A stretch of DNA of 64,000 nucleotides, from assembly GCA_965198005.1 (NCBI GenBank), contig CBDAOI010000003.1, positions 608,001-672,000 of the forward strand. The letters run 5' to 3'. The stretch comes from Spirochaetia bacterium. Its GTDB lineage: Bacteria > Spirochaetota > Spirochaetia > SZUA-6 > Bin103. Of the stretch, positions 21,463 through 36,108 are shown piece after piece. Positions within the stretch are counted from its first letter, which is position 1. The number at the start of each line of letters is the position of its first letter. The notes beneath the pieces were generated by a model. That model was not told where the DNA came from and did no database searches. It worked only from the letters and a program-made list of their open reading frames with translations. A program made the position numbers and the translations under genes.

Positions 21463-21741
21463 ATGGCGCATGTAGTAGGACACAAGGGCCAAGTTGTGAT
21501 CGCCAAGGAGATCCGCGACTCATTGGGAATCGCACCGGGGTGGATGTCGCTGCAACGGATCGTCGATGATCACGTGGAGATCCGATTCGTCCCGCCTGAA
21601 CATCGAGAGTCGTTGAAGGGAAGCCTCGCTCCTTATGTCACACGCCACATCCCTTCCAGTGCTGAATTCGCGGAAGCCAAGGAACGGGCTTGGCATAGTG
21701 CCGCTCATGAGCGATCGGGTCGGCAGGCGCGATCGAAGTGA
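21463..21741 (+). CDS. AbrB-fold VapB antitoxin
   Basis: VGHKGQVVIAKEIRDSLGIAPG; AAGGAG RBS. Confidence 0.85.
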   Translation: MAHVVGHKGQVVIAKEIRDSLGIAPGWMSLQRIVDDHVEIRFVPPEHRESLKGSLAPYVTRHIPSSAEFAEAKERAWHSAAHERSGRQARSK

Positions 21742-22151
21742 GCGATCTGATCGATACATCGCTTATCGTCCGGTACCTGACCGGCGATCCACCTCACCTG
21801 GCGGATCTCAGCGCACAGTTGATCGACGGCGAGGCCAATCTGACTATCACCGACGTCGTGCTCGTGGAGTCGGCCTACGTGCTCCGCTCGGTGTATGGCG
21901 TTCCGCGCGAAAGGATTGTCGATCAACTCGTCGCACTGCTGTGCAGGGCGAACATCGGCACCTTCCCGATGCGGAAGGAGCAGATGATCGAGGCGCTCCA
22001 GTTGTGCCGTCCGTCGGGACGGGTATCGTTTGGCGACGCCATGATATGGGCCGTGGCCCGGTTCACCGGACAGGCCATATTCACCCTCGACGAACGGTTT
22101 CCAGGAGCGGGGATAACCAGACATCGGCTCACGCAGGATACAGGTCGATAG
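21738..22151 (+). CDS. PIN-domain VapC toxin
   Basis: LIDTSLIVRYL, VLVESAYVL, SFGDAMI, IFTLDERF. Confidence 0.88.
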   Translation: MSDLIDTSLIVRYLTGDPPHLADLSAQLIDGEANLTITDVVLVESAYVLRSVYGVPRERIVDQLVALLCRANIGTFPMRKEQMIEALQLCRPSGRVSFGDAMIWAVARFTGQAIFTLDERFPGAGITRHRLTQDTGR

Positions 22152-22318: not shown

Positions 22319-24382
22319 TCAACCGTCCCTGCCGGCCGCTCTCGGGAGCTCTCCGGTCGAGCGCACGAATACGCCTTGGGCCACCAGCTTGCGGCGCACC
22401 GCCGCCGGGAGCTCGGAGCGTCCCACCAACTCCACCGCGCTGTCCGACAGCCGGCGCCCGTGCTTGCCGAGCGCCCCCAGGACGCGGAGCGCGGTCTCCG
22501 CATCGTGGCAGTCGAGCACCACCGCCGGGCGCATGTCGACCCGGCGCACCCCGGCCGCCCAGTCCTCGATCTGGCGCTGCACATTGGGGGGCAGCGGCTG
22601 CTGCGACAGGTCGCCGGCCGTTGCGACTATCTGCTTGGCCGCGTGGCCGGCCAATACCGCGCGGTGCACCGACTCCCTGGTGATGACGAACAGCGTTCCC
22701 ACCGCGTCCGGTCCTTTGAGCGCCGGCGTCGGCGCGGCAAAGCTGCGCGCCCGAACCTGGTCGATCGGTGACGGCCCCAGAAAGACAATCTCGAAATTGG
22801 GCTGCACGATTGCTGCGCCGATTTTGGCGGGCGCGTCGAGTGTGAAGTCGTCCACCTCGCCGAGGAGGTAGCGGCCGATGTCGGTCAGGCGAAAGCCGAC
22901 CGCACCGCCGGCAAGTGGTCCCAGGGCCGCGCCGCCGAGCGAGATCAGCCGCTCATAAAAGAACGCCGTGAGGATCGCTCCCCAGATCCGTTCCGCGCGG
23001 TCGCGTCGGCCGTATCTCAGAGTGCCGGGATCATCCTCGAGCAAAGGGTTGCGTTCTTCGCAATGAAAGCGGATGAAAGCCTCCAGATCGAGGATGGCGT
23101 CCCGGCCGACCGTACGAAAGGCATCGGTGACCCCGGCATCGACTCTGCGGTCATACCAGATCTCGTCCAGCTCACGCAGCAGAGGCACGTAACTCAGGTA
23201 GACCTCTTCCTCGTCATAGGCGTAGCGCGGCCGCTCCAGCGCGTCCCGGCGCAGGGAGTCCAGGATTCGCTGCAGGCGGTGCTTCGCGTCGAGCAACAGC
23301 CAGCGCTGCCCGCGATCGGTCACCATCAGCCGGCGGTTGTTGCCGGGTCCAACGCGCGCTTCTGCCAGCTCGAGCAGTTGCGCGAAGCTGGTCGCCCGCA
23401 AGATGCGTGTTTCGTTGCTCAGGCGCGTGCCGGCACGGCCGACCCAGGCCGGCAGCACGGCCAACCTGGCGCCGAGGGCGGTGCGCGCCCGCGCGTACAG
23501 CGCGCCGCCGCCGGCTTTGAGGCGGGGCGGTTCGACAATTGCTTCGATCAGGAGGGTGGCCAGGTCCTCCAGCAGGAGCGGGCGGCAGACCACGTCCCCG
23601 CCACTGAACCTGGCCGACTCCGGCGCGGCGGTGCGCCCGCGGTGCAGACGTTCGAGGGCGGGCAGCCAGACGCCGATGAAGGGCAGCATGGTCGCGTCGA
23701 CGGAAGTCAGGAGCAACGCCTCGCCGCAGGCGAACGCGAGGCCGGCCGCCAGCGCTGCGCGGTGCCCGCCGCGGTCAGCCGCCTCGACCAACTCAGTGAG
23801 CGCGATCGGAGCGCCCCGCTGCGCCACCGTCTCGATCAGCTTCCTGGCGGTGGCGACGGCGGCCGGCCGCGCCTGCCGCCAGCGGTCGTAGTGGTGGAAC
23901 ACCAGGGGAGGAGGTCCGGAACCGGGCTCTCCCTGCCACTCCAGGAATTGGCGCAGCCAGTCTACCTCGTGCATCTCGACGGCGAGTTGGTCGCGGCGGC
24001 TGTCTGCGTCGCGGCGGCTGAGCGCGGCGATCTCCTGCATCGTGTAGTGGTGAAGCAGATAATTTGACAGCACGTCATTGCTGCGCCGGCGATCGTGGAT
24101 CGCGGTATGACCGGAGTAACGTACGTCGTCGAGTGCGCGCAATGCCCGCAGCAGGAACCGCCGCGGCTGGGGCACGATGAGGCGGGGTTCGTGCGTGGTC
24201 AGCGCCGGCTGCAGCCAGCCACGGTCGATCAGATCGGCCATGCCCGCGGTCTGCTTGGTTCGGTATGCGCCGCCACTGCCCCGGCTGATGTCGATCAGCA
24301 ACTGCCGGCGATTGTCCGACAACGCCTCCCAATCCGGGAGCTGAGCGAACAGCTCCAGCCAGTTCCACTCGAGGATCTTCAT
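22319..24382 (-). CDS. Helicase-associated (XPB/Ssl2 N-terminal-like, Helicase_C_3) domain protein
   Basis: C-terminal IVQPNFEIV..ITRESV.RA..G..LPPNV..I.DW; no Walker motifs. Confidence 0.7.
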   Translation of the reverse strand: MKILEWNWLELFAQLPDWEALSDNRRQLLIDISRGSGGAYRTKQTAGMADLIDRGWLQPALTTHEPRLIVPQPRRFLLRALRALDDVRYSGHTAIHDRRRSNDVLSNYLLHHYTMQEIAALSRRDADSRRDQLAVEMHEVDWLRQFLEWQGEPGSGPPPLVFHHYDRWRQARPAAVATARKLIETVAQRGAPIALTELVEAADRGGHRAALAAGLAFACGEALLLTSVDATMLPFIGVWLPALERLHRGRTAAPESARFSGGDVVCRPLLLEDLATLLIEAIVEPPRLKAGGGALYARARTALGARLAVLPAWVGRAGTRLSNETRILRATSFAQLLELAEARVGPGNNRRLMVTDRGQRWLLLDAKHRLQRILDSLRRDALERPRYAYDEEEVYLSYVPLLRELDEIWYDRRVDAGVTDAFRTVGRDAILDLEAFIRFHCEERNPLLEDDPGTLRYGRRDRAERIWGAILTAFFYERLISLGGAALGPLAGGAVGFRLTDIGRYLLGEVDDFTLDAPAKIGAAIVQPNFEIVFLGPSPIDQVRARSFAAPTPALKGPDAVGTLFVITRESVHRAVLAGHAAKQIVATAGDLSQQPLPPNVQRQIEDWAAGVRRVDMRPAVVLDCHDAETALRVLGALGKHGRRLSDSAVELVGRSELPAAVRRKLVAQGVFVRSTGELPRAAGRDG

Positions 24383-24553
24383 GGGCGCGGCCCGCCGAGC
24401 ATGGCGCCGTTGCCCGCGGCGCACCAGAGATGGAGGTATGTGACCCGGTGTGTGACGCGCGGTGTGACAGCAGCGTTGTCATGGCGCGCATGCGATCGCT
24501 GCACCGGCGCCGGTGGTGCGCGGTTGCCCGTTGCGGAGTGCTTGCTCGTCACG

Positions 24554-28097: not shown

Positions 28098-31000
28098 CTA
28101 CTGCGGTCCGCGTCGTGCAACGAGCTCACTCAGACCGGTTTGGAGATCGCCGGGAAGATCGCGCTGAAGGAGCCTGTCTATGAGTTCCTTACCCTTGTAC
28201 CAATTCCTGTACTTCTCGCACGTGCCCAAGTAAATCAACAACTCTGCGACGGACTCAGGATAGGCTGTCGGAAGCTCAGACTCATTCAGTGTGAACACCA
28301 TATTGTGTCCGGCTTCCGGTCTCATGTCTTCCGTCGACACACGAATCGCAACATCAACCGCCTCGGGGAATACACCTTGCAGTAAAGGAAGCCATCGCAA
28401 CATGTGCCAGGTCTCTCGAGGTTGCAGACTGTCCGGGAGCCCCTTCACACGGTTCTGCCAGTACGACTTTAGCCATCGCTGCCACATATCCGCTTGCTGT
28501 GCCTCGTTCATGTTCTCCAGACGCTCATGCACACTCCAAACGAATGTAAGCCGCTCGTCTTCGTCCGCCCATTTTAGCAGCTTCGGAATCCATGTCCCGA
28601 CAGGATCGCCAGCGAAAAATGAGAGCATGAACGTGTAACACTCGATGAAGCTCTCGCGTCTGGAAGCAGGTTCTTCAGCCATCCGCACGACGGCATCAAG
28701 AAACGGAATTTTCATGATCTCGGACACGGTAGCGTTGATGGTTCCACTCAATATGCCATCCCATATCGCTGTATAGTCCGCACGGTTGGCACAGTTCGGG
28801 TAATCGTAGAACAATGGCAGGAGGTTATCCTTGGCCCACGCTTCGTCAATAGCCAAGAGCATCGACAAGTGACGTGCGAGGACACAACGCCCAAGTCTAC
28901 CAACTGCTGTGCCGTCGTGTACGATACGCAAGAACCGTGTCTTGTATGGCTCTACGTCCGCAGCTTGGTGTTCCCTCCGATTGTTCCGGAATGCTAAGCT
29001 ATCGATCCAGAACTGTACCAGAACGCCAGCCGGATGACCCCACGCCTTGATCAACCAGTCATCGCATTCTTCGGGAATGTCTTGTCCGTCGACGGATCTC
29101 CACAAGTCGACGGCTACGGTGTCCGCCGCTTCGATCAAACCGTCTGAGTTGGACAAATCGGCATTGCGTACCAGTGCTTGGAGAGCTTCAGCAATCGGAA
29201 GCGCATGGTTCTCGTGCAGATCTTCGCGCCGTAGAATCCGAAGAGTCCGATGGTACTGGCTTCTTTCGAGTTTCGTGGTTGACCAACTGCGCAAGATAAC
29301 AGACCACAGATCGGCTTCCCATCTTTCTCTCCGGAGCAAGTCCTCGGCGAGATCAAGTGCCCAGTCGATGCACCGAGCTGCTGCCCGGGCAACCGCATCG
29401 AGAAGCCGCTGCCGTTTGGGTTTGAGGGGATCGGAAGGCTGGTACGCCAACAGCCTGTCAGTCCAATCACAAGCCGGTTGTGCAACCAGCTCCTCGGGCT
29501 CCCAGGGGAAGATGGGGCTGGTATCTCTTAACGAAGTCCTGCGGTCGACGTCAGGAAACTCCCTCTCGTTGAAATCTGGATACTGCTGCCGCAGACTCTG
29601 CAGAGCTTCCCTGAGCAAGCAGCACGCCGGGGCGACGTCCAACAGCCACTCCAGCCAGGAAAATCGGTGACTGACCGTCAGAGTATCGCTGTCCTCGTTC
29701 TGGGCTCCGGGCCATCGATAGTCGAGAATGTCCTTGATTACTGCCCGACGGCGACTCTCGCCGACGGCAGGATAGGCAATCTTCAATGCACGGATTCGTT
29801 CGTGACGCGCCGACCAGTCGTACTGGCTCGAACGTTGCAAAAGCCAATCGATTGTTTCTTCAGGTGCCAGGCCGCGGGCAATCACGCCGTGTATCGCCAA
29901 CCGGCGAAGAATCGGCGCTTGCGCTTCGGCAAGCCGGTCGCACCATTGAGCTGCTGCGCCCGGATGGTGCGATGCGAGCCATTCCAGACAGTCCCTTGCC
30001 GCGTCGATCAGGACGTTACCTACTTCAAGCCTCCGCGAATATGGCGTATTGTTGTCCGACTCAATAGCGAACCTGCTCATGCTCAACGGATCCCGATCGG
30101 GGGAGGCGGCGTCCCAAGTGGAGAGAGTGCGGAATTGCGCATCAAGATTCGCCACAACGTACGCGATCAGCCGGCCGGCTATCTGTCCAAGATTCGGCTG
30201 CAATCCCTTCTTCCATATATGCTCAGCCGTGTAGCGGTAGTCGTCGCTTGCCGCGTCCAACTCGGCGTGGATTGTAGGAACCGGTTCGCTCTCTGCATCA
30301 CCAAACAACCCGGTGGAGAATCGACTCAACCGTAGTGTCACCGTCGTCACGTGCTCGAATATGACGATGAGACTGTCGATCGCCTTGCGCTCGACACAGC
30401 GATCGGCCAGATACTGGAGGGTATGGTCAGGAGCCGGAGACGGGGCTGTGGCCAGCAACACGGACACCCAGCGCGACAGAGTCTCCTGGTCTGGTATGGT
30501 CGAGCCGGGGATTCCCACGGCGTACGCCAACGCTTGCCAGAACTCCGGGTGGACGTGCATGCCGTGACGGCCGATTACGCGCCACACCTCCTCGGGATGG
30601 TCGCAAGCGAATTCTTTGGCCAGCCATTTGGCCAGTTCACGCTCCGGCTCTGTAAGCTCGGCCCGCCCCCGAAACAGGTTGAGCAGGTGCTCACCCCTGT
30701 CGAGCCAGCCGATCCAAGCAGGATCCTTGGCGCTGGCCGTGAAGAAGCGCGTCAAGACCTGATCCGAAAACGCCTCGGTGAGCACCTCTCCGTCGTAATC
30801 GTCAATTGAAGGAGTCCTCTTGGCGATCTCTCTGATCAGATGCTGCCAGTCGAGGACACGACGCGACCTGTATTTGGCCAGCTCCCGAATGCCCACGTAC
30901 AGGGTACCATAGTCCGACTTGGGAAACGGGATCGGCGCGATTCCGAGACGATTCCATCGCCCGTCCTCAGCTTCGTCCGTGAGCACAAAGCGCTGAGCGT

Positions 31001-31643
31001 CGCCTGTAGGTAGCGCCCGCGCCAGATAGTTCATCACAAGGTCGCTGTGGCTGTAGCCGACGAACAGTACCGTGAACGATCGGAACAGATCGACCAGAAA
31101 TAGTCGCGCCCATCCCTCGGTCAGATACGCGCGCCCGAAGTCTGTGTCAGTCAGTACCATGGTGTCAGGTCGATCGAGAGCGCCGTGCACATGGACGATG
31201 CCGTTGAACTCCCTTCCCAACGGCAACGCCGGTGCCTTGAACACTTCAGGCTTCGAGTCGGCAGCGCTCTCCTCTGCGGCCTGTTCGAATAAGAGATCGA
31301 AATTGGTCGTGACGATGCGCGTGGAAGTTCCGCGCGGAAAGAGCCGCAGCAAATCCCGGTGTAACTCGGTTGGGCGTGGACAACGTTTGTTGAGTTGCTC
31401 GGCGGCGCGCTGGTGCACATGTACGCCCTTGTCCGTCTTGAGACGGCCGAGAAAGCGATCTTCCGGCTCGTCGTCCCCGAGAACTTCTCCGGTACCCTGA
31501 GAGACTTCCTTGGCCAGCGTCTTGAAACTCGGCAGGCACGCAGGATCTCCCATCGAGACGCCGGCTCCGGCAAATACGGCCAACTCGTCATTGCGGAGTG
31601 CCTTCAAGAGTGCGGAGGGGAAGTCGACACCTGCCAGCTTCAT
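28098..31643 (-). CDS. SIR2-family NADase + DUF4020 protein (defence-associated sirtuin-like), 1181 aa
   Basis: FAGAGVS, IVTTNFD, VHVHG, FGRAYLTEGWA, LFVGYS; C-terminal W..WL..YW..R..G.P..L (DUF4020-like). Confidence 0.85.
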   Translation of the reverse strand: MKLAGVDFPSALLKALRNDELAVFAGAGVSMGDPACLPSFKTLAKEVSQGTGEVLGDDEPEDRFLGRLKTDKGVHVHQRAAEQLNKRCPRPTELHRDLLRLFPRGTSTRIVTTNFDLLFEQAAEESAADSKPEVFKAPALPLGREFNGIVHVHGALDRPDTMVLTDTDFGRAYLTEGWARLFLVDLFRSFTVLFVGYSHSDLVMNYLARALPTGDAQRFVLTDEAEDGRWNRLGIAPIPFPKSDYGTLYVGIRELAKYRSRRVLDWQHLIREIAKRTPSIDDYDGEVLTEAFSDQVLTRFFTASAKDPAWIGWLDRGEHLLNLFRGRAELTEPERELAKWLAKEFACDHPEEVWRVIGRHGMHVHPEFWQALAYAVGIPGSTIPDQETLSRWVSVLLATAPSPAPDHTLQYLADRCVERKAIDSLIVIFEHVTTVTLRLSRFSTGLFGDAESEPVPTIHAELDAASDDYRYTAEHIWKKGLQPNLGQIAGRLIAYVVANLDAQFRTLSTWDAASPDRDPLSMSRFAIESDNNTPYSRRLEVGNVLIDAARDCLEWLASHHPGAAAQWCDRLAEAQAPILRRLAIHGVIARGLAPEETIDWLLQRSSQYDWSARHERIRALKIAYPAVGESRRRAVIKDILDYRWPGAQNEDSDTLTVSHRFSWLEWLLDVAPACCLLREALQSLRQQYPDFNEREFPDVDRRTSLRDTSPIFPWEPEELVAQPACDWTDRLLAYQPSDPLKPKRQRLLDAVARAAARCIDWALDLAEDLLRRERWEADLWSVILRSWSTTKLERSQYHRTLRILRREDLHENHALPIAEALQALVRNADLSNSDGLIEAADTVAVDLWRSVDGQDIPEECDDWLIKAWGHPAGVLVQFWIDSLAFRNNRREHQAADVEPYKTRFLRIVHDGTAVGRLGRCVLARHLSMLLAIDEAWAKDNLLPLFYDYPNCANRADYTAIWDGILSGTINATVSEIMKIPFLDAVVRMAEEPASRRESFIECYTFMLSFFAGDPVGTWIPKLLKWADEDERLTFVWSVHERLENMNEAQQADMWQRWLKSYWQNRVKGLPDSLQPRETWHMLRWLPLLQGVFPEAVDVAIRVSTEDMRPEAGHNMVFTLNESELPTAYPESVAELLIYLGTCEKYRNWYKGKELIDRLLQRDLPGDLQTGLSELVARRGPQ

Positions 31644-31685
31644 TCGGGAATCAGACCGCCCGTAGTTCCGAATACTCGATCGGCG

Positions 31686-32195
31686 TCATCGGCGCCCTTC
31701 GGCAAGGAGCAGCTCTCCGAGCGTCCTCCGCAGCCACTGTCCCGTGTAAGGGAGCCTCAAGGAGTTTCGTGGGCGGTGGCCTGTGTCCGAGAGCAGCCGC
31801 TCCAGGGACACGAGCCGCTCCCGAAACCCGAGGCGAATGCCGCAGCGAAGACTCGCTCGATCGGGTCCGCACAATACCCAGGCGTCATTCCGACTCAGGG
31901 CGTGAGCCCACAGCGATTCCTCGCCCCTGTCCAGCGCGATCTCCTGCTCGCGCAGAGCCATCTCCGCGCGCTCCAGATCGCTGACGGTGTGAACCCCGCT
32001 GAGCGAGCCGCGTAGTGCGGTCTCGTCGATCTGCCGTTCGGGGCGCCGACGCTGGGCGCCGGCCTGACTCTCGGCCACGCACTCCTCCACGGTTTCCACG
32101 CGGTAGCCTCCGGTGAGCGCACGCCACGCCGCCACCCGGTGCGACTCTATGATGACGTTGGTGTCGACCAGTACCGGGCCACGGTGGCGCTCCAT
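31686..32195 (-). CDS. PIN-like domain protein
   Basis: VLVDTNVII, E..E, LDRGE..L, D.A acidic pattern. Confidence 0.7.
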   Translation of the reverse strand: MERHRGPVLVDTNVIIESHRVAAWRALTGGYRVETVEECVAESQAGAQRRRPERQIDETALRGSLSGVHTVSDLERAEMALREQEIALDRGEESLWAHALSRNDAWVLCGPDRASLRCGIRLGFRERLVSLERLLSDTGHRPRNSLRLPYTGQWLRRTLGELLLAEGRR

Positions 32196-32199
32196 GGGC

Positions 32200-33336
32200 C
32201 TACAGCTCGACCGCCTGTTCGATCCCATGTGAGGTGAACACGTCCGCGAGATCGTCGACCGCGACGTCCAGCAGGCTGGCCATACGACGAACGGAGACGT
32301 GTCCTCCGTCCAGGGCGAGGCCCATCACTTCCATGAATGGTCTGGAAAACCGGGGTGGGGGGACATTTTCCGGCACGGCACGGCCGTTGTTGCGGAGCGC
32401 CGCGTCGGGCACGGTACGCGCGACTGCCGGCGACAACTCGTCGAGTGCGACCAGGCGCCACTTCAGCGCCGAAGCGGTCACCTGCAACTCGTCGGCTACC
32501 CGGTTCAGCCGCCGGATCAGTTCATCTCCGGACAGACGCGACCAACTCCCGAAGCGGGTCAGCTTGGCCGCGGGCATGAGTGCCGCCGAGGCGAAATTGT
32601 TGGCGAGTTGTTCCACCCGGTTGCCACCGGTGTCGTTTGCCTCCTCGTAGTGATCGGGCGGCATCGCATCCCAGGTGAGGATGTGGAACAGCTCGTGAGC
32701 GAGATCGAAGTGGCGGCGTCCGGCGACTTCACCCCGCGCGATCAGGACGGCGTCCAGGTCCGGAAGGCGGCAGGCCGCCCCCGAGATGCCGCGCTGCGCA
32801 TCCACCACGAGGACGAGGACTGCGAATTCGCGTTCCATGACTTCGCGCAGGCGGATTGCGGGCACATCGCCAAGGCCGAATTCGGCGGCGAACCGTTCAC
32901 CGGCCAGCATCGCAGCCTCGAAACTGGACCGCCGGTCGAGCCCGAGGGTGCGGCGCATGAGTGGTGTGCTGCGTCCGACGGCCGGTGCCAAGGTTCGGAA
33001 CGCAGCGATCCAGCGTCCGGCGTTGCGTTCGTACGCTACGAGCTGCTCGGCCTCGACTCCGGTGTGCCGCCAGCAGAAGCGACCCTCGCCGACCAGCCGG
33101 AAAGGATCCGTGAAGTAGTCCAGGGGAGCCCCCAACACCTCCACCGCGAGCACCAGTTCCTCGGCGGTGACTCTCCGGTTGCCGGTCTCGATGGCCGAGA
33201 CGGTCTGCCGATCCTTGAAGCCGAGAGAGCGGGCAAGGCGCTCCTGCGAGAGTCTGCGCTCTTGGCGCAACGCCTTGAGGCGCGCGCCAATGGGCGACTT
33301 CGACGTACGATCCTGGAATCTTGCACCTTCCATCAT
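32200..33336 (-). CDS. XRE HTH + ImmA/IrrE zinc metallopeptidase
   Basis: RLKALRQ..LSQERLA..VSAIETG (HTH); RRHFDLAHELFH and E..ANNFASAALMP (HExxH peptidase). Confidence 0.9.
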   Translation of the reverse strand: MMEGARFQDRTSKSPIGARLKALRQERRLSQERLARSLGFKDRQTVSAIETGNRRVTAEELVLAVEVLGAPLDYFTDPFRLVGEGRFCWRHTGVEAEQLVAYERNAGRWIAAFRTLAPAVGRSTPLMRRTLGLDRRSSFEAAMLAGERFAAEFGLGDVPAIRLREVMEREFAVLVLVVDAQRGISGAACRLPDLDAVLIARGEVAGRRHFDLAHELFHILTWDAMPPDHYEEANDTGGNRVEQLANNFASAALMPAAKLTRFGSWSRLSGDELIRRLNRVADELQVTASALKWRLVALDELSPAVARTVPDAALRNNGRAVPENVPPPRFSRPFMEVMGLALDGGHVSVRRMASLLDVAVDDLADVFTSHGIEQAVEL

Positions 33337-33399
33337 GCAACAAATATATGCAAATTGTCGTTCGTGTGTCGAGCCGATACTCCAGCGGCGCTACACCGA

Positions 33400-33647
33400 A
33401 GGCTATAGGTCCCGTGCAGGAAAACACCTCCCAGCCAGCGTCCATACTGCACGTAGACGGGCACGTCCAATCCCAGCATCCGCTCAACAGCCGCGCGGTC
33501 AACCTCGAAGGTCAGAAATGCCGTATTGGCTACTATGTGGTCTATGACATCGCCGGGGATGAAGCGGACCGAGAGAAAGACCAGGATGCTCGGTATGAAC
33601 AGGGTGGGGATTACCAGCAATAACCGCCTGATGATATAGGCTCTCAT
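33400..33647 (-). pseudogene. Truncated peptide ABC permease (DppB-like N-terminus)
   Basis: MRAYIIRRLLL..LGLDVPVYVQYGRWL; paralog of 48614-49618, broken after about 80 aa. Confidence 0.8.
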
Positions 33648-33728
33648 GTCCCACACCTCAAAGAGAGCTGGAAAGATCACGCCTCCCAGCTCCCTTCTCC
33701 CTGAAACCAGCCACGAGGGGCGAGTCCC

Positions 33729-34372
33729 CTAATGTCCCATTTCTTCCTTCAGTTCATTATCAACCCAGAGGCGCGAGAAGACCGTCAGGTTTTGCATAGA
33801 TCCCATGCCGCCCTCGCCGCTGTAGCCTATTATCCACGGCTGGTGGACGTTGAACGCCGGAGGCAAAGGCCCCCATACCATCCAGTGCCGCTCGATGCTG
33901 AGCATGTCCATGTCCCTTATCGGGCGTTGCTGCTCCTCGACGGTGGTAGCCGCCAACATTTCTTCATACCAGGCTTCGTACTGCGGGTCGTTGATTATCG
34001 CCTTTGACTCGGCGGAGCAGCCTTGACGCCCGCTTCCTGGGACGTGGTACCCAGCCATTTCCCTGCCGATCTTTCCCCGAGGTATGATGTCAGCATAGCC
34101 CTTGAAGTAGGTGTTGTTCATGCTCTCGAGGTCCAGCGCCATCTGCATGCCATGGCGCACCCTTATGTCGTCATAGGGCGGTTTGGTCACGTTCATGAGC
34201 GTAGCGTTGTTCGACCGTTCCGACCACGGGACTAGCACGAGTTCCGGGTTGGTCCGCCGGAGGCTCTCTGCCTGGTCTACCGTGTTCAATTGAGCGGCGC
34301 CCTGCCAGCCGATGTAGTCGATCGTACCGGAGCGCAGTCCCGCCAGCATGGTTGGCACTTCCACGATAATGA
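33729..34372 (-). pseudogene. ABC substrate-binding protein C-terminal remnant with internal deletion
   Basis: LRSG.ID, PPYDDIRVRH.MQMA, QPWIIGY.GE..RLWVD; paralog of 49751-51541. Confidence 0.8.
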
Positions 34373-34588
34373 GACGAACGCATGGTTGCTCACCAGCGAG
34401 TGCATCGAGGCTGCCGCCTTCTCCGACAAAGACACGTAGAGATCCTGACCGGCAAAGGACGCGGCGGGCCGCGCCAGCGCCGATTGCAGCATCCCTCGAT
34501 CCCTCAGGCCGTCGGCTCCGCCGGTGTCGGCGAGCAGCGACCGATGGAGGTCCAGGATCTGCTGGTCACTGAGATACTCGATCATCAT
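34373..34588 (-). pseudogene. Doc/Fic toxin truncated inside the catalytic motif
   Basis: GG..GLRD.G.L.SALARP..LVSNHAFV; the expected DGNKR is absent. Confidence 0.8.
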
Positions 34589-34838
34589 CACTGCCGCCGG
34601 CGAGGCGTTCGTACAACTCTCGCCGCTCCTCAACGAGACGGTCCACCATTTTCCGGTACCGTGGTGAAACTTTGCCCGCCTCGAATGACCTGACTCCGCT
34701 GCGCACGACGAAGCTCCCGTCACGCGCATCAACCGTCGCGTCGACCTCCATGCCGGGCCGCAATGCGAACTCCTTCACCAAGTCGTGTGGTAGGGTGACG
34801 GCAAGGCTATTGCCGACGCGTACGAGCTTACGCTTCAT
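34566..34838 (-). CDS. AbrB-fold antitoxin (Doc partner)
   Basis: MKRKLVRVGNSLAVTLP..LRPG.EV. Confidence 0.8.
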   Translation of the reverse strand: MKRKLVRVGNSLAVTLPHDLVKEFALRPGMEVDATVDARDGSFVVRSGVRSFEAGKVSPRYRKMVDRLVEERRELYERLAGGSDDDRVSQ

Positions 34839-34931: not shown

Positions 34932-35121
34932 GCCGCCACCCGGTGCGACTCGATGATGTCGTTGGTGTCGACCAGTACCGGGCCACGGTGGCGCGCCATG
35001 GGCCTACAGCTCGACCGCCTGTTCGATCCCATGTGAGGTGAACACCTCTGCGAGATCGTCGACCGCGACGTCCAGCAGGCTGCCCGGCGACTTCACCCCG
35101 CGCGATCAGGACGGCGTCCAG
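34932..35121 (-). repeat. Decayed partial copy of the ImmA/PIN junction
   Basis: 34932-35082 matches 32128-32278 and 35084-35121 matches 32720-32757. Confidence 0.9.
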
Positions 35122-35212
35122 TTCCGGACCAAGCCAAACAAACGCCGTAGGTGGCGAAGCCGGCATCGTCCGTAACAAGCCGTGACCCGCCTGATAGGGT
35201 AGTCTGTAGCGC

Positions 35213-35644: not shown

Positions 35645-35729
35645 AGTGACGACGCGACGATCTTCCTATGCGCGCCACCGTAACGATTGACGATGGTGTT
35701 CTCGCCGGTCAGCTCATCGAGCGCGCCAC

Positions 35730-36108
35730 ATGCCTTCGACACGCTCAAGGCGGCGACTCGGCTGCAGGAAGAAGCGGGCTTCGACGAGACCAAGGCGCGC
35801 GTGCTGGTCTCGACCTTTGCCGAGGGCATGGTCGAGAACCTCGCCACCAAGGACGACATCGCCGGCATCCGCAACCCTTGCGACCAAGGAAGGCGAGCGA
35901 GGTGGCAACCCTTGCGACCAAGGAAGAGCTTGCAACCCTGCGCGGCGATATGAATGAGATGGGTGCCAGCCTGCGCGGCGAGATGCATGAGATGGCGGCC
36001 AGCCTGCGCGGCGAGATCAGCAAGGTCCAGGAGCGGCTGACCATCCGTCTGGGAGCCGCTATCGCTGCTGCCGTGGCGATCCTGGTTGCCGTAGATAAGC
36101 TGTTGTAA
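35730..36108 (+). pseudogene. DUF1640/CCDC90-like coiled-coil protein, frameshifted
   Basis: AFDTLKAA.RL..AGF, LATKDDI / LATKEEL..11-aa repeats and a C-terminal TM; preceded by a VapB-like MRATVTIDD scrap. Confidence 0.65.

What the first reader, a model, noticed from the sequence alone, without database searches (positions are those of the whole stretch)
28098..33345. Candidate undescribed defence operon: XRE-ImmA/IrrE peptidase + PIN-like protein + large SIR2-DUF4020 NADase
Seen: three intact co-oriented genes with 4-bp and 42-bp gaps, in a lower-GC island where most neighbours are decayed. HExxH, the PIN acidic residues and SIR2 TTNFD/HxHG are all intact. A TATATT lies 6 nt before the ATG and a TTGCA-N10-TGCAA palindrome (33321-33340) overlaps the start. 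Known: SIR2 domains deplete NAD+ in DSR/Thoeris/pAgo systems; HTH-Zn-peptidase proteins act as antitoxins or regulators (RosmerTA RmrA; CapH/CapP is the two-protein analogue). Inference: an autoregulated, possibly ssDNA/damage-sensing peptidase controls two effectors (an RNase and an NADase). I know of no described system with this exact trio.
Basis: partly seen in the sequence, partly recalled or inferred. Interest (0 to 1): 0.72.

Follow-up and report, generated by a model that had tools for sequence, protein, structure and literature searches.

The report
Toxin-antitoxin pair leading a Dsr1-like NADase
The three genes are real and intact, but they are likely two separable defence parts, a self-regulating toxin-antitoxin pair that precedes many different defence genes in other bacteria and a likely stand-alone phage-sensing NAD+-destroying enzyme, rather than one new three-part system.

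Summary
Genes, gaps, motifs and palindrome are confirmed. The trio is not obligate. XRE-ImmA + PIN is a conserved pair (78 of 80 PIN loci) with a conserved operator (72 of 79 loci, 0.3 in shuffles). A modelled complex puts the ImmA C-terminus over the PIN active site (0.88, best control 0.00): a likely type II toxin-antitoxin pair of a kind predicted since 2009. The SIR2-DUF4020 gene is a full-length homologue of Dsr1, a single-gene system with its own capsid sensor. It follows the pair in 1 of 80 PIN loci, and none of 80 SIR2 loci has the pair. The trio is confined mainly to one Spirochaetia clade, where the SIR2 gene was deleted (G007) or broken (G004) behind an intact pair. Elsewhere the pair leads DISARM drmA (28 of 80), another SIR2, AbiJ or NERD. 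Whether its promoter usefully controls such cargo is the open, testable question. ssDNA sensing has no support here.

The parts
33343..33348 (-). Candidate -10 element TATATT, 6 nt before the ATG (likely leaderless transcript); a TCGACA at 33372-33367 is a possible -35 but lies outside the block shared with relatives
   Evidence: homology with G004 and G007 begins at 33354-33355; similar element in the Spirochaetia loci
33321..33340 (.). Operator palindrome TTGCA-N10-TGCAA over the ImmA start; family consensus TCTTGCA-N10-YGCAAGA
   Evidence: 72 of 79 loci versus 0.3 in shuffles; best genome-wide matrix hit, 25.8 bits versus 18.1 for the next site
32200..33336 (-). XRE HTH + ImmA/IrrE (Peptidase_M78) fusion, 378 aa; predicted antitoxin and autorepressor; H214-E215-x-x-H218, E242; residues 342-351 predicted to cover the PIN active site
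   Evidence: Pfam HTH_3 and Peptidase_M78, PADLOC RmrA E=6e-19, alignment, complex model
31686..32195 (-). PIN-like protein, 169 aa, probably DUF3368/COG2405-like; predicted RNase toxin; D11, E42, E92, D112
31644..31685 (-). 42-nt spacer; no consensus terminator or promoter found, so read-through into the SIR2 gene is likely
   Evidence: junction bridged by independent contigs
28098..31643 (-). SIR2-DUF4020 protein, 1181 aa, Dsr1-like: N-terminal SIR2 domain (N114, H153) and about 900 aa of helical repeats as predicted sensor; G+C 0.578
34932..35128 (-). Relic of a second ImmA-PIN copy (about 95% identical): short ImmA piece joined to the ImmA end and the first PIN codons, then a stop; no SIR2 follows

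Best explanation
The locus is likely a cassette of two separable parts: a predicted type II toxin-antitoxin pair (XRE-ImmA antitoxin, PIN RNase toxin) and, behind it, a Dsr1-like gene predicted to sense phage on its own and destroy NAD+. Shown: the genes, their catalytic residues, the conserved operator and the distribution. Predicted: XRE-ImmA binds the palindrome and represses its own promoter, and holds the PIN protein inactive by laying residues 342-351 (with conserved R350, R351) and part of the HTH across its active site. Inferred by analogy with ImmA/ImmR and IrrE/DdrO: the zinc peptidase cuts the fusion under some stress, freeing the RNase and lifting repression; the trigger is unknown. 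Inferred from EcDsr1: the helical C-terminal part binds a phage structural protein, probably major capsid protein, and switches on the SIR2 NADase without needing the pair. The SIR2 gene likely arrived later as cargo (lower G+C), is likely co-transcribed by read-through, and has travelled with the pair in one Spirochaetia clade, being lost, broken or exchanged while the pair stayed intact.
For: Pair: ImmA precedes PIN in 78 of 80 loci, the best 80 of 207 found; operator in 72 of 79; complex score 0.88 against best control 0.00, runs agreeing in at least 93% of contacts, partner pLDDT at least 88; that mark was reached by 116 of 157 solved complexes and 2 of 215 mismatched pairs. Separability: this SIR2 family follows in 1 of 80 PIN loci; no ImmA or PIN in 80 of 80 metagenome SIR2 loci, 46 of them with at least 1.7 kb upstream; none in loci from 5 Acidobacteriota genomes with 31-44% identical SIR2; 8 of 50 pair-bearing genomes hold a Dsr1-type gene elsewhere, without the pair within 1.5 kb. 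Dsr1 likeness: 1056 columns, probability 100, 27% identity to NCBI-annotated Dsr1; SIR2-free C-terminal profile matches it at E=2e-54. Loss in place: G007 keeps an 11-codon remnant of the SIR2 start exactly 42 nt after the PIN stop (best of 29,936 positions) and no SIR2 gene; G004 has a TGA at codon 340. Cargo exchange: L024 and L031 share a TrwC-ImmA-PIN backbone at 94% DNA identity that ends at the end of the PIN gene, followed by a different SIR2 in one and AbiJ in the other.
Against: The trio is inherited as a block in its clade: 15 unnamed contigs carry a close SIR2 and a close PIN or ImmA by matching contig length, and PIN and SIR2 identities correlate over 13 such pairs (Spearman 0.59, 4 of 2000 permutations as high). 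One of them (24,333 nt) pairs a separately placed SIR2 with a separately placed ImmA-PIN, and L024 has a second SIR2 family behind the pair, so pair-then-SIR2 may have arisen three times. No toxicity, binding, nuclease, NADase or transcript data exist for this locus. The complex model may reflect likeness to solved VapBC complexes. Truncated SIR2 copies may partly be sequencing errors or contig ends.
Confidence: 0.6

Rival explanations
1. The pair is a portable inducible switch: its autorepressed promoter is used to keep downstream defence genes (Dsr1-like here, drmA-drmB in DISARM, other effectors on mobilisable elements) low until stress or infection, with the PIN RNase as a coupled abortive back-up. 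The cargo works alone biochemically but its expression depends on ImmA.
For: drmA starts directly after PIN in 28 of 80 loci, 23 of 28 with an ATGA overlap, between drmMI and drmA; further defence-like genes follow directly in L021, L023, L024, L027, L031, L032, L095, L097; one strong operator per genome, at the ImmA promoter; no terminator or promoter in the 42-nt spacer; CapH/CapP control CBASS expression and CapH-CapP fusions occur at DISARM loci.
Against: The 28 DISARM loci are essentially one clade of the ImmA-PIN tree, so one insertion event; the 7 other alphaproteobacterial DrmA genomes found among 401 lack the pair; in many of the 52 remaining loci the next gene is housekeeping or convergent; defence genes cluster in islands anyway, and other TA pairs (BrnTA, AbrB-VapC) also precede Dsr1-like genes.
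Confidence: 0.25
2. One reading: an obligate three-gene system in which a damage- or ssDNA-sensing peptidase directly gates both an RNase and an NADase.
For: Tight spacing and shared orientation; trio repeated in G004 and probably through one clade.
Against: Each part occurs far more often without the other; SIR2 deleted or broken behind an intact pair; Dsr1 has its own sensor; no GAF domain detected in ImmA.
Confidence: 0.07
3. The PIN protein is not a free toxin but a nuclease accessory of a DISARM subtype without drmC, chaperoned by ImmA; copies outside DISARM, including this one, are displaced modules.
For: Translational coupling of PIN to drmA; no drmC-like gene seen after drmB in the DISARM loci read; DrmC is reported as often missing.
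Against: 51 of 80 loci have no drmA within the 7-kb flanks yet mostly keep both genes and the operator; the DISARM set is one branch among many; the model shows the active site occluded, as in VapBC pairs.
Confidence: 0.08

Closest known systems
Dsr1 (defence-associated sirtuin 1; NCBIfam NF041818)
   Same: SIR2 domain with catalytic Asn/His followed by a long helical region; full-length homology to NCBI-annotated Dsr1 WP_013028139 including the sensor region; usually a single gene.
   Different: Distant subfamily: 219 bits against a cut-off of 1400, 27% identity; carries DUF4020; here sits behind a toxin-antitoxin pair. Trigger untested.
Xre-COG2856 (DUF955) + PIN predicted toxin-antitoxin systems (Makarova 2009, PMC2701414; Matelska 2017, PMC5499597; NetFlax ImmA zone, PMC10440598)
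   Same: Fused HTH and HExxH peptidase directly upstream of a PIN gene; predicted autoregulation and proteolytic release (passages).
   Different: This PIN family is below every Pfam cut-off tested; the operator, the predicted active-site-covering interface and the habit of leading defence operons come from this work.
RosmerTA (RmrA-RmrT) and pneumococcal RipAB
   Same: Antitoxin is an XRE-Zn-peptidase fusion (RmrA profiles E=6e-19; spr1629 family E=1.8e-10).
   Different: Toxin is PIN-like; no RmrT profile match.
CapH/CapP regulators of CBASS; CapH-CapP fusion plus vapC at a Nocardia DISARM locus (Lau 2022)
   Same: HTH repressor and ImmA-type peptidase upstream of defence genes; one published DISARM case already has a fusion and a vapC-like gene.
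   Different: There the regulators lie upstream of and opposite to the operon; here they are fused, co-oriented and, in DISARM, inserted between drmMI and drmA; no GAF domain detected.

Membership tests
Dsr1 | N-terminal SIR2 domain with catalytic Asn and His | tested here: met
   SIR2_2 77.6 bits; N114 and H153 in 164 of 164 rows
Dsr1 | C-terminal helical-repeat sensor homologous to Dsr1, no STAND NTPase | tested here: met
   SIR2-free profile matches annotated Dsr1 409-1234 at E=2e-54; mostly helical model, pLDDT 83; no NTPase hit
Dsr1 | Reaches the NF041818 equivalog cut-off | tested here: not met
   218.9 bits versus 1400; filed as Dsr1-like, not as a member of the equivalog
Dsr1 | Occurs as a single-gene system | tested here: met
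   Family level: no ImmA/PIN in 80 of 80 loci and varied upstream genes
Dsr1 | Phage-triggered NAD+ depletion; capsid protein as trigger | not testable with these tools
   Reported for other Dsr1 proteins
Xre-COG2856 + PIN type II toxin-antitoxin pair | Conserved two-gene operon, HTH-peptidase fusion before PIN | tested here: met
   78 of 80 loci
Xre-COG2856 + PIN type II toxin-antitoxin pair | PIN acidic catalytic residues | tested here: met
   D11, E42, E92 invariant, D112 at least 90% in 77 rows
Xre-COG2856 + PIN type II toxin-antitoxin pair | PIN fold | tested here: inconclusive
   Single-chain model poor (pLDDT 56), no fold match; Atlas neighbours of a homologue carry DUF3368 at 0.93-0.95
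Xre-COG2856 + PIN type II toxin-antitoxin pair | Autoregulatory operator at the promoter | tested here: met
   Sequence level only: 72 of 79 loci; binding not measured
Xre-COG2856 + PIN type II toxin-antitoxin pair | Antitoxin binds and neutralises a toxic partner | tested here: inconclusive
   Model supports binding, 0.88 versus 0.00; toxicity and rescue need experiments
RosmerTA | RmrA-type Zn-peptidase antitoxin | tested here: met
   PADLOC RmrA E=6e-19
RosmerTA | RmrT-type toxin | tested here: not met
   No RmrT match for the PIN protein or 77 homologues
CapH/CapP | Regulators encoded upstream of and opposite to the controlled operon | tested here: not met
   Fused and co-oriented; only L043 has a divergent drmA
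CapH/CapP | ssDNA-stimulated peptidase with C-terminal GAF domain | tested here: inconclusive
   No GAF hit; IrrE match covers the peptidase part only; activity not testable
Obligate three-gene system (proposed) | Three genes co-occur in most genomes that hold any one | tested here: not met
   1 of 80 PIN loci, 0 of 80 SIR2 loci

The most novel reading that the evidence does not exclude
This XRE-ImmA-PIN family is a portable stress switch for bacterial immunity: one proteolytic event frees an RNase toxin and derepresses whatever defence gene lies behind it, and it has been wired independently to a Dsr1-like NADase, a second SIR2 family, AbiJ, NERD and the drmA-drmB half of DISARM.
Probability: 0.25. 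Interest if true: 0.65.

Novelty: new variant of a known kind. Interest (0 to 1): 0.38.

Why it matters
As it most likely stands, it adds a distant Dsr1-like subfamily and a defined, untested member of a toxin-antitoxin class predicted in 2009, now with an operator and a predicted inhibition surface that make the old prediction directly testable. If the pair's promoter does gate the genes behind it, it would show how costly effectors such as NADases and DrmAB are kept quiet and swapped as cassettes, extending CapH/CapP-type control to a fused, toxin-coupled form.

Tried and rejected
The window's SIR2 protein alone found no metagenome loci; an alignment did. In 401 genomes drawn from the phylum only 2 besides G000 matched the SIR2 profile, without the pair. 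No P0143-like gene in 23 genomes of one alphaproteobacterial order, so the possible second Dsr1 trio could not be read directly. A regulon: no listed second operator match lies within 40 kb of the ImmA site in 25 genomes, so no site at drmD was seen. The single-chain PIN model was poor and both fold searches were uninformative; profile searches of solved structures gave nothing. The Pfam scan of 75 of 83 genes upstream of SIR2 loci found no Peptidase_M78 or PIN, but its threshold (1e-7) would have missed the window's own pair, so one search is the real test, and only for this family. Expression: three metatranscriptome runs gave one 219-nt exact piece at 31998-32215 and almost no SIR2 cover; this shows neither transcription nor its absence. 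No deletion joint across SIR2 among the joints listed. Viral contigs: 2 PIN loci, both with ImmA; their neighbours scanned in Pfam were methylases, a resolvase, a terminase and a NOV_C protein, no SIR2. The maximum-likelihood tree timed out; trees are FastTree with midpoint roots, so no direction of transfer is claimed. Three look-ups of earlier findings returned nothing. Literature searches for the trio found nothing relevant: DUF4020+SIR2, 0 papers; Dsr1+ImmA+PIN, 3 unrelated listings; DISARM+DrmA+ImmA+PIN, only Lau 2022. The library lacks most subscription papers.
Full report
What is there. Three intact minus-strand genes lie at 33336-32200 (378 aa), 32195-31686 (169 aa) and 31643-28098 (1181 aa), 4 and 42 nt apart. 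The first is an XRE HTH fused to Peptidase_M78, the second has a sub-threshold PIN hit (20 bits, cut-off 23.6), the third has SIR2_2 and DUF4020. H214, E215, H218 and E242 are invariant in 55 ImmA homologues; D11, E42, E92 are invariant and D112 nearly so in 77 diverse PIN homologues; N114 and H153 are present in 164 of 164 SIR2 rows. Independent sequencing runs reproduce the locus, and contigs of three runs bridge the PIN-SIR2 junction without differences. Only the SIR2 gene is low in G+C (0.578 against 0.66 for the genome and 0.66-0.68 for the pair). The nearest PIN loci are titled Spirochaetia and Spirochaetales MAGs; a sponge habitat is likely but rests only on short exact pieces in sponge metatranscriptomes.

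The first two genes are a unit. Of 207 PIN loci found among species-representative genomes the best 80 were read. ImmA lies directly upstream in 78; one miss is at a contig edge. A palindrome TTGC-N12-GCAA precedes or overlaps the ImmA start in 72 of 79 loci with enough sequence, across Alphaproteobacteria, Acidobacteriota, Binatota, Latescibacterota and Spirochaetota, against a shuffled mean of 0.3. In the window's genome the site at 33321-33340 is the top matrix hit, and no second site was seen near drmD in DISARM genomes, so the repressor likely controls only its own promoter. A complex model scored 0.88 against a best control of 0.00, with runs agreeing in at least 93% of contacts and partner pLDDT at least 88; 116 of 157 solved complexes and 2 of 215 mismatched pairs reach that mark. 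ImmA residues 342-351, which include invariant R350 and near-invariant R351, and HTH residues 55-62 touch PIN residues 42, 84-92 and 111-117, that is, its acidic site. This fits a type II toxin-antitoxin pair; it may partly reflect likeness to solved VapBC complexes and shows no affinity. The arrangement was predicted as a toxin-antitoxin class by Makarova 2009 and Matelska 2017 and appears in the NetFlax ImmA zone (passages). XRE-ImmA fusions act as antitoxins in RosmerTA and RipAB (passages).

The third gene is Dsr1-like. It hits PADLOC Dsr1 (E=1.4e-56) and NF041818 (219 bits, far below the 1400 cut-off). Its alignment matches an NCBI-annotated Dsr1 over 1056 columns (probability 100, 27% identity), and a profile without the SIR2 domain still matches residues 409-1234 at E=2e-54. 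The model is a SIR2 domain followed by a long helical solenoid (pLDDT 83) whose best structural hits are DSR2 and ThsA, at low global TM-scores. Dsr1 is a single-gene system that depletes NAD+ (passages of bioRxiv 2021.12.14.472415), and the E. coli protein is triggered by major capsid protein through its TPR sensor (PMC12803255, section 5). The protein therefore likely carries its own sensor.

The trio is not obligate. This SIR2 family follows the pair in 1 of 80 PIN loci (L021, the same locus as G004). Among the best 80 of 532 metagenome SIR2 loci none has ImmA or PIN by tblastn (46 have at least 1.7 kb upstream, 63 at least 550 nt), and family profiles run over 108 loci found only the seeded DISARM locus and one lone 67-aa HTH. 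Five Acidobacteriota genomes with 31-44% identical SIR2 lack the pair nearby; one has AbrB-VapC instead. Of 50 pair-bearing genomes, 8 hold a Dsr1-type gene elsewhere. Among 23 family relatives, G004, G007, G013, G020 and G022 have the pair (PIN truncated in G022), only G004 has the trio, and G011 has a distant Dsr1-type gene without the pair.

Evidence against pure chance. The trio is conserved within one clade. Adjacency was not read. PIN and SIR2 identities correlate over 13 pairs (Spearman 0.59; 4 of 2000 permutations), with one clear discordance: PIN 92-93% identical, SIR2 64-73%. The linked SIR2 proteins are spread through a well-supported clade of 66-80% identity, and one linked SIR2 (47%) falls outside it together with a separately placed pair. 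Within the clade the cargo is the part that goes: G007 shares upstream synteny with G004 and keeps only an 11-codon remnant of the SIR2 start, 42 nt after the PIN stop (best of 29,936 positions); G004 has a TGA at codon 340; PIN is 160-171 aa in 13 of 13 pairs, SIR2 at least 1050 aa in 8 of 13, and 13 of 34 hand-listed SIR2 entries on contigs of 20 kb or more are near full length. A longer gene is also more exposed to errors and contig ends.

What the pair leads elsewhere. In 28 of 80 loci drmA starts right after PIN, 23 with an ATGA overlap, in the order drmD-drmMI-(variable)-ImmA-PIN-drmA-drmB. These form essentially one branch; no drmC-like gene was seen in the loci read, and the 7 other DrmA-bearing genomes among 401 Alphaproteobacteria lack the pair within 1.5 kb. 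On TrwB-TrwC mobilisable elements the backbone is 94% identical between L024 and L031 up to the end of the PIN gene, then carries a Dsr2-profile SIR2 or AbiJ; relatives carry a GASH-GTPase module or a NERD protein. Lau 2022 lists one DISARM locus with a CapH-CapP fusion and a vapC-like gene (passage). Of the other loci, 40 of 52 first downstream genes were scanned and many are housekeeping.

How it likely works. Shown: anatomy, conserved residues, operator, distribution. Predicted: ImmA represses its promoter and covers the PIN active site. Inferred by analogy: the peptidase cleaves the fusion on an unknown signal, freeing the RNase and raising transcription. Inferred: the Dsr1-like protein senses a phage structural protein and depletes NAD+ on its own. 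With no terminator or promoter found in the spacer, its gene is likely read from the ImmA promoter; whether that matters is the open point. ssDNA sensing has no support: no GAF domain was detected and the IrrE match covers the peptidase only.

Verdict. Observation largely right; interpretation partly right. A combination of two known kinds in one lineage, not a new three-part system. I found no description of the trio, within a library that lacks most subscription papers and without reading supplements. Interest 0.38; the portable-switch reading has probability about 0.25 and would merit 0.65.

Noticed in passing
L033 1109-12920, L035, L055, L058 and 24 further loci: A clade of class I DISARM operons in Alphaproteobacteria has XRE-ImmA-PIN inserted between drmMI and drmA, PIN stop overlapping the drmA start, with no drmC seen; short Argonaute genes (TIR- or SIR2-APAZ, pAgo) often follow drmB.
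   Followed up: partly
L024 788-11192, L031, L032, L027, L082: TrwB-TrwC mobilisable elements with ImmA-PIN and an exchangeable defence slot behind the PIN gene (Dsr2-profile SIR2, AbiJ/PDC-S32, GASH + double GTPase, NERD): a candidate defence hotspot.
   Followed up: partly
L043 (G456:C1 about 2,573,800-2,592,300): Rearranged DISARM: drmA-drmB diverge from the ImmA promoter, and ImmA-PIN-HTH face an ASCH/PDC-M11 pair and drmMI; resembles the CapH/CapP layout.
   Followed up: no
window 34932-35128, 34286-34838, 33333-34364: Upstream graveyard: ImmA-PIN relic with a large internal deletion, an AbrB/MazE gene with a truncated Fic/Doc gene, and fragments of a solute-binding protein and an oppB gene; the oppB-like fragment has dozens of similar pieces across the genome.
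   Followed up: partly
L100 7834-7866 (G007): Eleven-codon remnant of the SIR2 start behind an intact ImmA-PIN pair.
   Followed up: yes
window 33336-33348 and loci L020, L021, L102-L104: In the Spirochaetia copies the ImmA start codon has moved into the operator's first half-site and the GGAGG ribosome site seen in most other loci is missing; the transcript is likely leaderless.
   Followed up: partly
window 21463-22151: A separate AbrB-like + PIN (VapBC-type) pair on the plus strand.
   Followed up: no
window 22319-24424: A 701-aa protein with a Helicase_C_3 (XPB/Tfb2-like) C-terminal domain and no helicase core hit.
   Followed up: no
window 35668-36108: Small protein with 33-nt tandem coding repeats and near copies elsewhere in the genome; no Pfam hit.
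   Followed up: no
G000 C1, C3, C4: The genome holds 9 Peptidase_M78 matches and 3 SIR2_2 matches; one of each lie about 6 kb apart at C4:776993-783486.
   Followed up: no
L192 3268-7498, L193 3921-8344: Two viral contigs carry the ImmA-PIN pair, one after two DNA methylase genes, one facing a NOV_C gene.
   Followed up: no
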